Positions 15,287 to 49,096 are shown, numbered from the stretch's first letter. The stretch: 64,000 nt of DNA from Promethearchaeota archaeon (GCA_019894975.1 JAGXNO010000009.1:1-64000), one strand, 5' to 3'. A program made the numbers and translations. Notes: generated by a model not told the origin, from the letters alone.

Positions 15287-15592
15287 TTACAGTAACTCAA
15301 TTTCTACTAGAACTGATTCAGGTATTTGAATCTTCATTATAAGATGCATACTTCTTTCATTTGCGATAATTTCAAAAAGTCTTTTATGAATACGCATCTC
15401 AAATTTTGCCCAGGTTGATGTACCCTGCCCACTTGGAGCCTTCATTACAGGCACTCTGAGTCTTTTAGTAGGAAGAGGAATAGGTCCATTCTTTCGGATA
15501 CCTTGAGATGAACATACCGCAGAAACTTGCTCACATACTGATTTTAATGCCTCTAACTGCGTAGACGACAACCGTATGCGTGCTTTTTGTAT
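15287..15592 (-). CDS. rpsJ: 30S ribosomal protein uS10, inferred ATA start
   Basis: (M)QKARIRLSS...GPIPLPTKRL...FEMRIHKRL. The conserved QKARIR lies upstream of the track's TTG. The only candidate start after the in-frame TAA is ATA15592, 7 nt after GGTGA. Confidence 0.93.
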   Translation of the reverse strand: MQKARIRLSSTQLEALKSVCEQVSAVCSSQGIRKNGPIPLPTKRLRVPVMKAPSGQGTSTWAKFEMRIHKRLFEIIANERSMHLIMKIQIPESVLVEIELL

Positions 15593-15753
15593 GTTTTGAT
15601 CACCACTAAAAAATATTTAAAACTTTTGTTTCTTGCTATATTCTACAATCGTATAATTATTCCTATTAAATAAATTTTATTATCTAAGTTATTGAAGTAT
15701 ATAAATTAACTTAAACCTAGCAAGAATTTGGGGGTTTTTTTTTGGTTTTTTTT

Positions 15754-16413
15754 TTATATTCTCTTCTTTAATAGTAAAAATGTTTGACCAGCTTTTTGTT
15801 TTGGGTTATTCTTTACCATGAATCCGTCAAACCCATTATTGATAAAGGAATTTTTAAAAATATTTAGCTCTTTATCATCTTTGGGATAAAATTCGATTAC
15901 AATCCTTCCATTTTTCTTTAATATTGTGTCTATATATTTCGCAGTCTTAGTAAGTTGTTTAATTTTTTCACCATAATTCTCTCTTCCATAAGCAATAAAG
16001 TTGTAGGCAGAGATTGAGATGATGTGATCGATTTCATTTGATCTAATTGGTAAATAATTGATATCGGCTAAAATTAACTCAAAAAATTTTGGTTTTACCA
16101 ATTCTTCCTTTTTATCTCTTGCCCTCAATATCATATCAGGTAAGATATCAACACCTATTACTCTGAATCCATTTTCAACCAAGATTTCAGAAGAAAATCC
16201 AGTTCCACACCCTAAATCTAAAATTAAGAATTTTTTTTCATATCTTAGACTCCGTTCATTTTGGTTAACCAATTTTTCGTCGAATAGATATTGAATACTT
16301 AATAAGGTAGAGCGTTTTTGATTTCGTTCCATCCATTTTGAACTATCATATTCTTCTGCTTTTTCATTTAAATAATCCTTCGGAAATTGGGGGAGCTGAT
16401 TTTTTCTTACCAT
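15754..16413 (-). CDS. SAM-dependent methyltransferase, Bud23/WBSCR22-like
   Basis: ILDLGCGTGFS, IGVDI..DM, IISISA, IVIEFYP and GFDGFMV..NP. Confidence 0.8.
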   Translation of the reverse strand: MVRKNQLPQFPKDYLNEKAEEYDSSKWMERNQKRSTLLSIQYLFDEKLVNQNERSLRYEKKFLILDLGCGTGFSSEILVENGFRVIGVDILPDMILRARDKKEELVKPKFFELILADINYLPIRSNEIDHIISISAYNFIAYGRENYGEKIKQLTKTAKYIDTILKKNGRIVIEFYPKDDKELNIFKNSFINNGFDGFMVKNNPKQKAGQTFLLLKKRI

Positions 16414-45666: not shown

Positions 45667-45784
45667 ATTAAATCTTTAGATATTGATTAACCAATAAATA
45701 GTGATATATTTTTCAAGATTTTTCAAGATTTCTATTAATGAGAGAATTAGTGTATGAGTATTTCTAAAGCATTAGTTTCAAAAT

Positions 45785-48700
45785 CTACCAATATATTTCT
45801 TTTAATGTCTTATGATATTCATTAAGAGATTTAATCTCTACTTCTTTTTTCCTAACATCTTTTATAGCATCGACAATAGCTCTTGCAAGTTGTAAATTTA
45901 TTATTACGGGAATGTTATAATCCACTGCCATTCTACGAATCTTATATTCATCCTCTATGATTGTTGCGAATTTTTCTTCTACTGTAGTTGGCATTGGAAT
46001 ATTAATTACTAAATCTATTGCTCCATTTTGAAGGCAACCCATTATATTTGGTTCCATTCCAGCTTCATGAATCTTATATAATCTCACAGCATAGATTCCA
46101 CTGTTTTTTAATGCTAAAGCAGTAGCTTCAGTAGCGAATATTGTAAATCCCATATCTTTTAACTTCATAGCTAAAGGAATTATTTGTTTTTTTAATTCTT
46201 CTCCTCCTACTGAAATTAGTACATTCCCCCCTTCTACAGGAATACGCATTTCAGTAGCTTCTAAAGCTTTTATTAAGGCATCTTGGAAATCCTCTCCTAT
46301 AATGCCAATTTCACCAGTAGATGCCATTTCAACCCCGAGTCGAAAATCTGCTTTGTCCAATCTCAAAAATGAAAACATTGGAGCCTTAATACCCACATAG
46401 TTTCCATAAGGAAGATCGAGCAGTCTTTCTGGAATTTTATTACCCATTATTACCTCCGCTGCTAATCTCATAAGGTTTATGCCTCGAATTTTTGAGACAT
46501 ATGGCATACTACGGCTTGAACGCAAATTACATTCAATTACATACACATCCCCATTTTTAATCATATATTGAACATTAAAAGGTCCCCGAATTTTCAGAGC
46601 TAAAGCAATTTTTTTAGTATTTTCTTCAATTACACTAATTACATCTTCAGAAACCGTTTGGGGGGGAATTGTCATAGTTGCATCCCCACTGTGTATTCCT
46701 GCATTTTCTATATGCTCTACGATTGCTCCAATTAACACGTTAGAGCCATCACAGATACCATCACATTCTATCTCTCTTGCATTAGTGAAAAATTTAGTAA
46801 TTACAATAGGATATTCCCTAGAAACGGAAGCTGCAAGATCAAGTGTATCTCTGAGGGTTGTTTCATCGTAACATACTCTCATGGCAGCTCCACTTAATAC
46901 ATACGAAGGTCTAACAAGTACAGGGTAACTTACATTCTTTGCAAAATTTAGTGCTTCTTCTTTATCCGTTAAAGCACTCCATTGAGGTTGTTTAATATTG
47001 AGCTGATCTAGTAATGCACTAAATTTACTTCTATCTTCTGCCATATCTATTCTTGAACCATGGGTCCCAAGTATTTTTAGATTAGTTTTCCTAAAGAATT
47101 CAGAATACTTTGTAATTTTTGCGGCTAAATTATTTGCTATTTGTCCCCCTGCTGATACGACTATTCCCTCTGCTTTTTCAAGTTCACATATATCAAGCAC
47201 TCTTTCCCCAGAAATTTCATCAAAGTAGAGCTTATCACTTACGTCGTAGTCGGTAGACACCGTTTCTGGATTATAATTAATCATAATGGCTTGGTCCACG
47301 CCCAGCCTCTTAATTCCCCATAAACAATTAACAGATCCCCAATCAAACTCGACAGAAGCTCCAATACGATATGTACCAGAACCTAAAACAATAACTTTTC
47401 TAAGATTAGAATTATTTTCTTGCTGAAAATCTATGTCATGTTCAGTAGCGCTATATGTAAGGTATAAATAGTTAGTTATTGCTGGCCACTCTGCTGCTAA
47501 AGTATCGATCCTTTTCACATATGGATGAATTCCTAATTTTTTTCTCAGTTGTCTCACAAATATTGTATTGATCCCCATGATCTTACCTATTTGTCCGTCA
47601 GAGAATCCATATCTTTTAGCTCTTTCTAACAAATAAATTTTTTCTGAATCTGGAGATTCTAGTAAGTCAAGGCTTTCAATGTTCCGTTCTATATCTATAA
47701 TATTTTTTAATTTATGAAGAAACCATTTATCCACTCTTGAGAGACGATAGATTTCATCAATTGAAATCCCTCTTTTAATTGCTTCAGCAATTCTAAATAC
47801 TCTTAAGTCTGTAGGGTTTCTTAATGCATATTTTAATTCATTTATATCTTCAATTTCTTCCAAATCATTAGCTACAAAACCTTTCATCCCAATGTCAAGC
47901 ATTCTTATTGCCTTTTGTAGAACCTCTTCAAAAGTTCTACCAATTGCCATAACTTCCCCTACACTTTTCATCTGAGAGCCTAATCTTCGATCTACTTTTT
48001 GGAATTTTATAAGATCCCATCTTGGAAATTTGAGAACTAAATAATCTAATGCCGGTTCGAAGCATGCTGTAGTAATTCCGGTAATTTTGTTTTTTAACTC
48101 AGGTAAGGTATATCCTATTGCAAGTTTTGCTGCTATATATGCCAAAGGATATCCTGTCGCTTTAGAAGCTAATGCTGATGATCTAGAAAGGCGAGCATTT
48201 ACCTCAATCGCTCGGAATTCTTTTGAAAAAGGATCTAAACCATATTGAATATTGCATTCCCCAATAATACCAAGGTTACGAATAACCCTTATTGAAGCTG
48301 AACGGAGCATTTGGTACTCTTCATTAGTAAGTGTTTGACTTGGGCTTATTACTAATGATTCCCCGGTGTGAATACCCACTGGATCAAAATTCTCCATATT
48401 ACAGTTAATAAAACAATTATCCTCAGAATCCCTTACTACTTCATATTCAATTTCTTTCCAACCCCAGATACTTTCTTCAATAAGAATTTGATTTATCCTT
48501 GATTGAGCTAAACCTTTTTTTGCCATTCTTTCAAATTCTTTCATGTTATTAACTATTCCTGATCCTCTTCCACCTAAAGTGTAGGCTACTCGGAGCATAC
48601 ACGGAAATCCGATTTCTTCAACCGCTTTCAAAGCATCTGTATAGGAACTTACAGCTTGACTTTTACAGACTTTAACTTCAGAACTTTCCATTGCTTTAAC

Positions 48701-49096
48701 AAACAAATCACGGTCTTCAGTTGCCTCGATGGCTTCTATTGGTGTTCCTAGCACTCTTACATTATATTTTTCTAAAATACCGGCTTCTTTTAATTCAACT
48801 CCTACATTCAAAGCTGTTTGACCACCGAAAGATAATAAAATTCCGTCAGGTTTTTCCTTTTTAATCACTTCCTCTACATATTTAACGTTGATAGGCAATA
48901 AGTAAACATGATCAGATAACTGAGGATCAGTTTGAATCGTAGCTATATTAGGGTTTATTAAGATTGTTTCAATTCCTTCTTCCTTTAAAGCTTTAAGTAC
49001 TTGAGAACCACTATAATCGAATTCACCTGCTTGACCAATACGAATTCCACCAGAACCAACCACAAGTGCCTTTTTAATACTTCTATCAAGTGGTAT
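45785..49096 (-). CDS. carB: Carbamoyl-phosphate synthase large chain, inferred ATA start
   Basis: (M)PLDRSIKKALVVGSGGIRIGQAGEFDYSG, two ATP-grasp halves and an MGS domain. No ATG/GTG/TTG in frame before VV; GGAGCTGA sits 7 nt before ATA49096. Confidence 0.95.
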   Translation of the reverse strand: MPLDRSIKKALVVGSGGIRIGQAGEFDYSGSQVLKALKEEGIETILINPNIATIQTDPQLSDHVYLLPINVKYVEEVIKKEKPDGILLSFGGQTALNVGVELKEAGILEKYNVRVLGTPIEAIEATEDRDLFVKAMESSEVKVCKSQAVSSYTDALKAVEEIGFPCMLRVAYTLGGRGSGIVNNMKEFERMAKKGLAQSRINQILIEESIWGWKEIEYEVVRDSEDNCFINCNMENFDPVGIHTGESLVISPSQTLTNEEYQMLRSASIRVIRNLGIIGECNIQYGLDPFSKEFRAIEVNARLSRSSALASKATGYPLAYIAAKLAIGYTLPELKNKITGITTACFEPALDYLVLKFPRWDLIKFQKVDRRLGSQMKSVGEVMAIGRTFEEVLQKAIRMLDIGMKGFVANDLEEIEDINELKYALRNPTDLRVFRIAEAIKRGISIDEIYRLSRVDKWFLHKLKNIIDIERNIESLDLLESPDSEKIYLLERAKRYGFSDGQIGKIMGINTIFVRQLRKKLGIHPYVKRIDTLAAEWPAITNYLYLTYSATEHDIDFQQENNSNLRKVIVLGSGTYRIGASVEFDWGSVNCLWGIKRLGVDQAIMINYNPETVSTDYDVSDKLYFDEISGERVLDICELEKAEGIVVSAGGQIANNLAAKITKYSEFFRKTNLKILGTHGSRIDMAEDRSKFSALLDQLNIKQPQWSALTDKEEALNFAKNVSYPVLVRPSYVLSGAAMRVCYDETTLRDTLDLAASVSREYPIVITKFFTNAREIECDGICDGSNVLIGAIVEHIENAGIHSGDATMTIPPQTVSEDVISVIEENTKKIALALKIRGPFNVQYMIKNGDVYVIECNLRSSRSMPYVSKIRGINLMRLAAEVIMGNKIPERLLDLPYGNYVGIKAPMFSFLRLDKADFRLGVEMASTGEIGIIGEDFQDALIKALEATEMRIPVEGGNVLISVGGEELKKQIIPLAMKLKDMGFTIFATEATALALKNSGIYAVRLYKIHEAGMEPNIMGCLQNGAIDLVINIPMPTTVEEKFATIIEDEYKIRRMAVDYNIPVIINLQLARAIVDAIKDVRKKEVEIKSLNEYHKTLKEIYW

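What the first reader, a model, noticed from the sequence alone, without database searches (positions are those of the whole stretch)
15287..49096. Recurrent ATA/ATT (AUA/AUU) translation starts behind Shine-Dalgarno sites, including rpsJ and carB
Seen in sequence: in five genes the expected N-terminus lies upstream of the first in-frame ATG/GTG/TTG, and an SD sits 6-7 nt before an ATA or ATT. These are rpsJ GGTGA-N7-ATA15592 (MQKARIRL; in-frame TAA just upstream), carB GGAGCTGA-N7-ATA49096 (MPLDRSIKKALVVGSG), wHTH AGGAGGT-N7-ATA36713, longin AGGTG-N7-ATT23726 (MNIWIL), and dppBC AGGTGA-N6-ATT39318 (74 extra codons including TM1 and LIPGDP). Two more are compatible but ambiguous: AGGTGA-N7-ATT51602 and GGTGA-N5-ATA51449. 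That is roughly one gene in ten here. Established knowledge: AUU/AUA starts are rare exceptions in most prokaryotes (e.g. E. coli infC). Inference: relaxed start-codon stringency in this lineage (altered aIF1, aIF2 or initiator tRNA selection), which would mean many Asgard proteins are annotated with truncated N-termini.
Basis: partly seen in the sequence, partly recalled or inferred. Interest (0 to 1): 0.78.

Follow-up and report, generated by a model that had tools for sequence, protein, structure and literature searches.

The report
AUA/AUU start codons in Loki archaeon
In this Loki-type Asgard archaeon and its genus, about one gene in twenty (range 3-8%), including ribosomal protein S10 and the start-codon proofreading factor aIF1, very probably begins translation at ATA, ATT or ATC just behind a ribosome-binding site instead of ATG, so standard gene finders cut these proteins short.

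Summary
Confirmed. All five starts are at the stated positions, and orthologs support them. rpsJ has ATA in 30/30 close loci. carB, the 'longin' and the 'wHTH' swap ATG with ATT/ATA at the same position. dppBC has ATT in three close homologs. ATT51602 is also supported; ATA51449 stays open. Genome-wide, ATT, ATA and ATC are the three most enriched of 58 non-canonical codons at Shine-Dalgarno (SD) spacing (p=5e-9). An equally AT-rich Methanothermococcus shows no excess. The rate is about 3-8% of genes (a quarter of strong-SD genes); the window's 1 in 10 is the high end. Best mechanism (inferred): a strong SD places initiator tRNA on an AUH codon. In the 'longin', AUH and a stronger SD change together in about 5 of 5 independent pairs. 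No broken machinery was found: aIF1 is intact and the initiator tRNA anticodon stem is canonical. But aIF1's own gene starts at ATT, and needs a non-canonical start in four other Asgard families, which suggests infC-like feedback. rpsJ could instead be leaderless. Many public proteins are truncated, though NCBI sometimes uses the ATA. No reads or proteomics were checked. The scan noted this before on other DNA.

The parts
15287..15592 (-). rpsJ (uS10), 101 aa from ATA 15592
   Evidence: Pfam PF00338; ATA in 30/30 loci and 36 of 37 aligned rows, the other ATT; ATG/TTG/GTG at the same position in other genera and families
15600..15604 (-). SD GGTGA of rpsJ, 7 nt before ATA
   Evidence: GGTG at -11 to -13 in 37/37 correctly aligned rows
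15614..15621 (-). TATA-like box starting 29 nt before the rpsJ ATA; it would put a transcription start near the ATA (leaderless rival)
   Evidence: Found at -27 to -31 in about two thirds of orthologs; same distance as the TATA peak of SD-less ATG genes
23726..24571 (+).
   Evidence: Column ATG 17 / ATT 7, and ATG 31, ATT 26, ATA 3, TTG 1; many ATG orthologs have an in-frame stop two codons upstream; at least 5-7 changes on the tree
23714..23718 (+). SD AGGTG of the ATT 23726 gene
   Evidence: SD run of 4 or more in 26/26 ATH rows against 3/31 canonical rows; 4.8 of 5 independent pairs change together
36486..36713 (-).
   Evidence: Column ATA 14 / ATG 9; mean SD run 6.5 against 3.1
36721..36727 (-). 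SD AGGAGGT of the ATA 36713 gene
   Evidence: sequence; conserved in the ATA orthologs
39318..41183 (+). dppBC-like fused ABC permease, 621 aa from ATT (public aa)
   Evidence: ATT behind GGTGA/GGTGG-N6 in the 3 closest homologs, one with a TTG directly before it; PF00528 weak; model posterior 0.94; 547-aa form in NCBI nr
39306..39311 (+). SD AGGTGA of dppBC
   Evidence: sequence
45785..49096 (-). carB, 1103 aa from ATA, 2 nt after the carA stop
   Evidence: Pfam CPSase_L_D1 begins at residue 7; column ATG 22, GTG 3, TTG 2, ATT 2, ATA 1; three more ATA relatives
49104..49111 (-). weak SD-like GGAGCTGA inside the 3' end of carA
   Evidence: sequence; no SD strengthening in ATH orthologs, so translational coupling may help here (inference)
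49099..50235 (-). carA, upstream partner of carB, ATG start in all close orthologs (internal control)
51602..52780 (+). 392-aa protein (a relative is named epoxyqueuosine reductase by JGI) starting at ATT; upgraded from ambiguous to supported
   Evidence: 5/5 related contigs keep GGTGA-N7-ATT and have an in-frame TAA six codons upstream, which rules out the TTG at 51554; public-408 aa
50391..51449 (-). 352-aa protein; ATA 51449 or GTG 51458, unresolved
   Evidence: GTG-ATT-xxx-ATA conserved in 5/5 relatives; posterior 0.27 for ATA against 0.12 for GTG

Best explanation
These are real start codons. In this lineage a GGTGA/GGAGG-type SD holds the 30S subunit so that the P site falls 4-7 nt downstream, and the ordinary Met-tRNAi accepts AUU, AUA or AUC with a third-position mismatch. 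About 5% of genes (range 3-8%; a quarter of strong-SD genes) start this way. SD-less genes keep ATG. Most cases look nearly neutral: AT-biased mutation turns ATG into ATH, and the change persists where the SD is or becomes strong. A few are held by selection, notably rpsJ (always ATA) and aIF1 itself (ATT). The likeliest reason the tolerance is so high is aIF1 dose, not a broken factor: because aIF1 starts at AUU, it would be made only while AUU initiation works, an infC-like feedback that keeps stringency low. Shown from sequence: codons, SD dependence, rate range, SD co-variation, intact aIF1 and tRNAi stem, aIF1's own ATT. Inferred: that ribosomes start there, that Met is inserted, that output is lower than from AUG, and the feedback (about 40%).
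For: Ortholog columns. In-frame stops just upstream fix the N-termini. Model-free genome test p=5e-9 and 4e-8, with ATT/ATA/ATC the top three of 58 codons and no excess in Methanothermococcus. A model started flat over all 61 codons finds, among SD-led genes, ATG 66%, TTG 12%, ATT 6%, ATA 3%, GTG 3%, ATC 1.7%, and 92% ATG among SD-less genes. 87 genes have no canonical start before the ATH; in 47 of the 57 with homologs the alignment reaches upstream of the first canonical codon. SD and ATH change together in the longin. In rpsJ 76 of 77 invariant amino-acid columns vary in codon while the start never becomes ATG. aIF1 has no canonical codon before its zinc knuckle in 6 of 20 evaluable genomes from five families. 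S. solfataricus aIF1 discriminates against AUU in vitro, and IF3 and eIF1 autoregulate through weak starts (PMC4705826).
Against: No transcript, ribosome or protein data. The rate depends on the model: a second model gave 8.9% but with 29% noise, high-confidence calls give 3.4%, and non-discovery ortholog families give about 4-6%. E. coli and S. aureus have infC feedback yet only a few such genes (four non-canonical sites in S. aureus, PMC13009471), so feedback alone does not explain the high rate. carB shows no SD compensation. The sign test on 5 pairs cannot go below p=0.06. No 16S rRNA is assembled, so SD pairing is inferred from the canonical archaeal tail.
Confidence: 0.85

Rival explanations
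1. The same starts, but caused by intrinsically relaxed machinery (a Sui-type change in aIF1, aIF1A, aIF2, the 16S P site or the uS9/uS13/uS19 tails) rather than by factor dose.
For: aIF1 of families f1 and f3 shares three departures from other Asgards: a conserved Gly to Phe after strand 2, KLK to KAK, and ACGG to ASGG. It scores lower on SUI1 than most other families. The excess is lineage-limited.
Against: Loop 1 stays basic (RRKWGR against P. abyssi RARYGK). Cys to Ser/Thr occurs in 21% of aIF1 sequences (PMC6237735). The tRNAi anticodon stem is canonical in 7 genus and 32 family genomes. Family f12 has an ordinary-looking aIF1 and a suggestive excess. aIF1A, aIF2 and 16S were not compared.
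Confidence: 0.3
2. For rpsJ and possibly aIF1 the mRNA is leaderless: transcription starts at the A of ATA/ATT, the upstream GGTGA is not transcribed, and the codon is fixed partly by promoter needs.
For: A TATA-like box at -27 to -31 in most rpsJ orthologs, often after a BRE-like CGTAAA, and at about -31 in aIF1. SD-less ATG genes show their TATA peak at -33 to -28. The first seven rpsJ codons are unusually fixed at synonymous sites.
Against: GGTG is locked at -11 to -13 in 37/37 rows while the TATA-like box floats or is missing. ATH genes with strong SDs show no TATA peak as a class. SD-less genes use ATG in 92% of cases.
Confidence: 0.2
3. The ATH codons are not starts: they are assembly errors, or Met-to-Ile relics with translation starting at a downstream TTG/GTG/ATG.
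For: Ile codons are common in a 31.6% GC genome. Some apparent cases did turn out to have an ATG 1-2 codons away (36472, 22586, 14512).
Against: Same codon in dozens of independent assemblies. The skipped residues are conserved and lie inside domains. In some rpsJ orthologs the downstream TTG is TTA or CTT. aIF1 would lose 86 codons. Background composition is controlled for.
Confidence: 0.05
4. AUH is read by an Ile-tRNA acting as initiator, or the mRNA is edited to AUG.
For: The three codons are exactly the Ile box.
Against: CTG and ACG appear as rarer starts too, which fits single mismatches to a CAU anticodon. aIF2 selects Met-tRNAi (established). No such editing is known to me in archaea.
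Confidence: 0.02

Closest known systems
E. coli infC (IF3) AUU start with autoregulation; eIF1 poor-context autoregulation (PMC4705826)
   Same: The fidelity factor's own gene carries a start that the factor discriminates against; here aIF1 starts at ATT.
   Different: Feedback is shown experimentally there and only inferred here. In E. coli such starts are single exceptions; here there are about 100-270 genes.
S. aureus cvfC1 (AUU), ccpN, citZ and infC (AUA) behind extended SDs (PMC13009471)
   Same: Conserved AUU/AUA starts that come with strong SDs.
   Different: Four sites genome-wide, with measured 10-30% efficiency. Here several per cent of genes, AUC included, with frequent ATG-ATH exchange and no measurement.
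Kariarchaeaceae atubA 'rare ATT start codon' (PMC13394414; bioRxiv 10.64898/2026.02.15.705738)
   Same: An Asgard gene with ATT behind a ribosome-binding site, whose GenBank protein is too short.
   Different: One gene in another Asgard family, treated as a rare exception; no genome-wide claim.
Archaeal SD-led initiation at AUG/GUG/UUG (PMC7531240; PMC12993045)
   Same: Same factors (aIF1 present) and a GGTGA-type SD.
   Different: These reviews list only AUG, GUG and UUG and call SDs rare in Lokiarchaea. Here an SD-like motif is well used and ATT is at least as common as GTG.
NCBI translation table 11 alternative starts
   Same: ATT, ATC and ATA are permitted (own knowledge); NCBI gives a relative's rpsJ 101 aa from its ATA.

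Membership tests
SD-dependent near-cognate (AUU/AUA/AUC) initiation as in infC, pcnB, ccpN | AUH codon at the conserved N-terminus with no usable canonical start | tested here: met
SD-dependent near-cognate (AUU/AUA/AUC) initiation as in infC, pcnB, ccpN | SD motif at initiation spacing, stronger than for AUG alleles | tested here: met
   not seen for carB
SD-dependent near-cognate (AUU/AUA/AUC) initiation as in infC, pcnB, ccpN | Complementary anti-SD in the organism's own 16S rRNA | tested here: inconclusive
   no 16S assembled in G000
SD-dependent near-cognate (AUU/AUA/AUC) initiation as in infC, pcnB, ccpN | SD lies in the transcript (leadered mRNA) | tested here: inconclusive
   no leaderless TATA peak for the class, but a TATA-like box at -29 in rpsJ
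SD-dependent near-cognate (AUU/AUA/AUC) initiation as in infC, pcnB, ccpN | Ribosomes initiate there with Met, less efficiently than at AUG | not testable with these tools
   needs Ribo-seq, N-terminomics or reporters
infC/eIF1-type autoregulation | The fidelity factor's own gene has a weak start | tested here: met
   ATT in G000 and G069; forced non-canonical in f6, f12, f19, f20; ATG in Methanothermococcus
infC/eIF1-type autoregulation | Factor level represses initiation at that start | not testable with these tools
   only shown for S. solfataricus aIF1 against AUU in vitro (PMC4705826)
Sui-type relaxed machinery | aIF1 lost or lacking basic loop 1 | tested here: not met
Sui-type relaxed machinery | Initiator tRNA lacks the three G-C pairs of the anticodon stem | tested here: not met
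   GGGCTCATAACCC in 7/53 genus and 32/134 family genomes; the tRNA is not assembled in G000
Sui-type relaxed machinery | Changes in aIF1A, aIF2, the 16S P site or r-protein tails | not tested
   motif searches found aIF2 beta and gamma only; no comparison made

The most novel reading that the evidence does not exclude
An archaeal counterpart of IF3/eIF1 autoregulation exists: aIF1 is translated from a near-cognate codon in several Asgard families, and in this Loki family it sets the stringency for 100-270 AUH-started genes, with conserved members such as uS10 tuned by aIF1 level. Start-codon feedback on the fidelity factor would then be present in all three domains, in the lineage closest to eukaryotes.
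Probability: 0.4. Interest if true: 0.8.

Novelty: new variant of a known kind. Interest (0 to 1): 0.62.

Why it matters
Archaeal reviews list only AUG, GUG and UUG starts and call SDs rare in Lokiarchaea; both need revising for this large family (134 species-level genomes). Asgard proteins are mostly studied by synthesising database sequences, so missing N-termini matter, as the AtubA case showed. Here 23 of 63 close uS10 clusters are 94 aa instead of 101, and aIF1 has no canonical start until codon 86 downstream, so gene callers would miss or cripple it. If the feedback is real, it bears on how strict eukaryotic AUG selection arose and can be tested with existing archaeal in-vitro systems.

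Tried and rejected
(1) Start models on 200-kb samples: the flat start collapsed onto coding purine runs and the canonical start left 10-63% noise. Per-genome rates from these are not used; only Methanothermococcus (ATH 2-3%) and f8 (0.6-1.8%) behaved reasonably. (2) The pairwise homology-anchored count had few pairs and included antisense shadow ORFs; used only as a lead. (3) Apparent ATH columns at 36472, 22586, 14512, 16618, 19181, 23093 and 37631 were rejected: a canonical codon lies next to them or the column is internal. (4) Translational coupling as the general cause: rejected, ATH genes are no closer to the upstream gene than ATG genes (8.6% against 12.1% within 15 nt). (5) Leaderless transcription as the general cause: rejected for the class, kept for rpsJ. 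(6) No consensus RNA structure over the rpsJ start and no Rfam element there. (7) A comparison of aIF1 with its gene neighbours failed: too few shared neighbours. (8) 16S and tRNAi are not assembled in G000.
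Full report
Setting. The window is G000:C175:1-64000 of a 3.93-Mb, 31.6% GC assembly, 95% complete and 8.6% contaminated. The closest uS10 homologs are named Lokiarchaeota or Promethearchaeota by NCBI, so this is a Loki-type Asgard archaeon. 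Its family f1 holds 134 species-level genomes and its genus 53 more. Families are known only by code.

Observation. The first canonical codons lie 7 to 74 codons downstream. Pfam confirms uS10, CarB (domain from residue 7), CarA and weakly the permease; the 'wHTH' and 'longin' labels got no hit and are unverified.

Orthologs. rpsJ has ATA in 30/30 top loci, often two codons after an in-frame stop. Other genera and families have ATG, TTG or GTG at the same position, and ATA recurs in genera g7 and g11. At the carB position there are 22 ATG, 3 GTG, 2 TTG, 2 ATT and 1 ATA, plus three more ATA relatives. The longin has ATG 17 / ATT 7, the wHTH ATA 14 / ATG 9, and dppBC has ATT in its three closest homologs. 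ATT51602 is supported: five related contigs keep it and have an in-frame TAA that removes the upstream TTG. ATA51449 against GTG51458 is unresolved. Assembly error is therefore excluded, although raw reads could not be obtained.

Genome-wide test. In a model-free count, ATH makes up 196/1099 non-canonical in-frame codons 4-7 nt behind an SD match of at least 5 nt, against 150/1502 at 11-15 nt (p=5e-9) and 161/2162 out of frame. With 6-nt matches it is 69/265 against 44/436 (p=4e-8). ATT, ATA and ATC rank first to third of 58 codons. The excess is about 96 genes against 285 canonical ones, a quarter of strong-SD genes. In 200-kb controls the excess was -7 against 80 in Methanothermococcus (33% GC), -2 against 58 in f8 and -1 against 24 in f10. 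It was +7 against 20 in another f1 genus (p=0.01) and +6 against 33 in f12 (p=0.02-0.07). The other samples were too small to judge.

Rate. A model with a flat prior over 61 codons gave about 273 ATH starts in 3401 genes (8%), nearly all SD-led, while SD-less genes used ATG in 92%. High-confidence calls give 88/2587, or 3.4%, but only two of the six ortholog-supported window cases pass that cut, so it undercounts. A second model gave 8.9% with heavy noise. I take about 5%, range 3-8%. The window's 6 of 57 is the high end. Of 87 genes with no canonical codon before the predicted ATH, 57 have homologs, and in 47 the alignment reaches upstream of the first canonical codon; the other ten are uninformative.

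How it behaves in evolution. In the longin the start changes between canonical and ATH at least 5-7 times on the tree. All 26 ATH rows have an SD run of at least 4, against 3 of 31 canonical rows, and 4.8 of 5 independent pairs move together (p cannot fall below 0.06). The wHTH shows the same trend; carB does not, and sits 2 nt behind the carA stop. This looks like near-neutral drift paid for by a better SD (inference). rpsJ differs: synonymous sites vary in 76 of 77 invariant columns, yet the start is ATA in 36 rows, ATT in one and never ATG, which points to selection for a weak or otherwise constrained start.

Machinery. aIF1 is present in 271/301 Asgard genomes searched, including G000. It keeps the zinc knuckle, a basic loop 1 and the LQGD motif. 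Families f1 and f3 share three substitutions; one is the Cys-to-Ser seen in 21% of aIF1s (PMC6237735), and the effect of the others is unknown. The tRNAi anticodon stem GGG-CCC is intact wherever it is assembled in the genus. The notable result is the aIF1 gene itself (G000:C104:8813-9139): after an in-frame TAA the only plausible start is ATT, and the next canonical codon is 86 codons on. No canonical codon precedes the knuckle in 6 of 20 evaluable genomes from families f1, f6, f12, f19 and f20. Two more f1 genomes have only a GTG inside the SD itself, and Methanothermococcus has ATG. Since S. solfataricus aIF1 rejects AUU in vitro, and IF3 and eIF1 autoregulate through weak starts (PMC4705826), feedback is the natural reading. 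It is untested, and bacteria with such feedback have only a few AUH genes (PMC13009471), so a further relaxing factor may exist.

A caveat for rpsJ. A TATA-like box begins about 29 nt before the ATA in most orthologs, the distance seen for SD-less ATG genes. A leaderless mRNA is therefore possible for rpsJ, and aIF1 has similar geometry. Against this, GGTG is locked to the ATA in all 37 rows while the box floats, and ATH genes as a class show no such peak.

Annotation. Public collections hold the short forms: uS10 94 aa, CarB 1092, longin 268 and 262, permease 547. Among 63 close uS10 clusters, 23 are 94 aa. NCBI does give one relative the full 101 aa from its ATA, so the truncation is common but not universal.

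Comparison and verdict. It works like bacterial AUU/AUA starts behind strong SDs (infC, pcnB, ccpN) and meets their sequence criteria; the functional criteria could not be tested. It differs in scale and in domain. Seven literature searches found one Asgard ATT case treated as rare (PMC13394414), reviews listing only AUG/GUG/UUG and calling SDs rare in Lokiarchaea, and no genome-wide report; the library is incomplete. This scan's own notes describe the same pattern in at least eight other Loki genomes and elsewhere in this one; I read them after forming my view and do not count them as evidence. Verdict: real, a new variant of a known kind, interest 0.62.

Noticed in passing
G000:C104:8813-9139 (+), locus L107; L081-L100: The aIF1/SUI1 gene starts at ATT here, and at ATA, CTG or TTG in several other Asgard families; possible infC-like autoregulation.
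   Followed up: partly
window 15614-15621 and 15572-15592 (-): Conserved BRE/TATA-like box 29 nt before the rpsJ start, and unusually fixed synonymous codons in the first seven codons; no RNA structure predicted.
   Followed up: partly
window 15287-16413: rpsJ follows a methyltransferase gene here rather than the elongation-factor cluster in which it usually lies in archaea (own knowledge).
   Followed up: no
L319, L332 (orthologs of window 29838 and 10337); L328, L329, L331: CTG starts in two orthologs, and ATC exchanging with GTG in a gene family next to the window's orthologs.
   Followed up: partly
G000:C44 (-), C109 (+), C105 (+), C107 (-): Further predicted ATH starts include a likely eL34 and several P-loop small-GTPase-like proteins whose P-loop lies upstream of the first canonical codon (names from sequence motifs only).
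   Followed up: no
window 49096-49104 (-): A second in-frame ATA overlaps the carA stop (ATAG), like an ATGA coupling overlap; orthologs favour the ATA at 49096.
   Followed up: partly
G000 genome-wide: SD-less ATG genes show a TATA peak at -33 to -28, so a leaderless subset coexists with SD-led genes; A is enriched at -3 in all classes (62-68%), Kozak-like.
   Followed up: no
window 715-786 (+): A tRNA gene (Rfam RF00005). ARAGORN finds only 16 tRNAs in the assembly, one of them called tRNA-Sec.
   Followed up: no
window 45367-45666 (-): Possible further ATT start at 45651 behind GGGTG; low posterior (0.38) and an upstream TTG exists.
   Followed up: no
G013, G015, G018-G021 (family f3): carB not found with this query in several f3 genomes, including two single-contig ones.
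   Followed up: no
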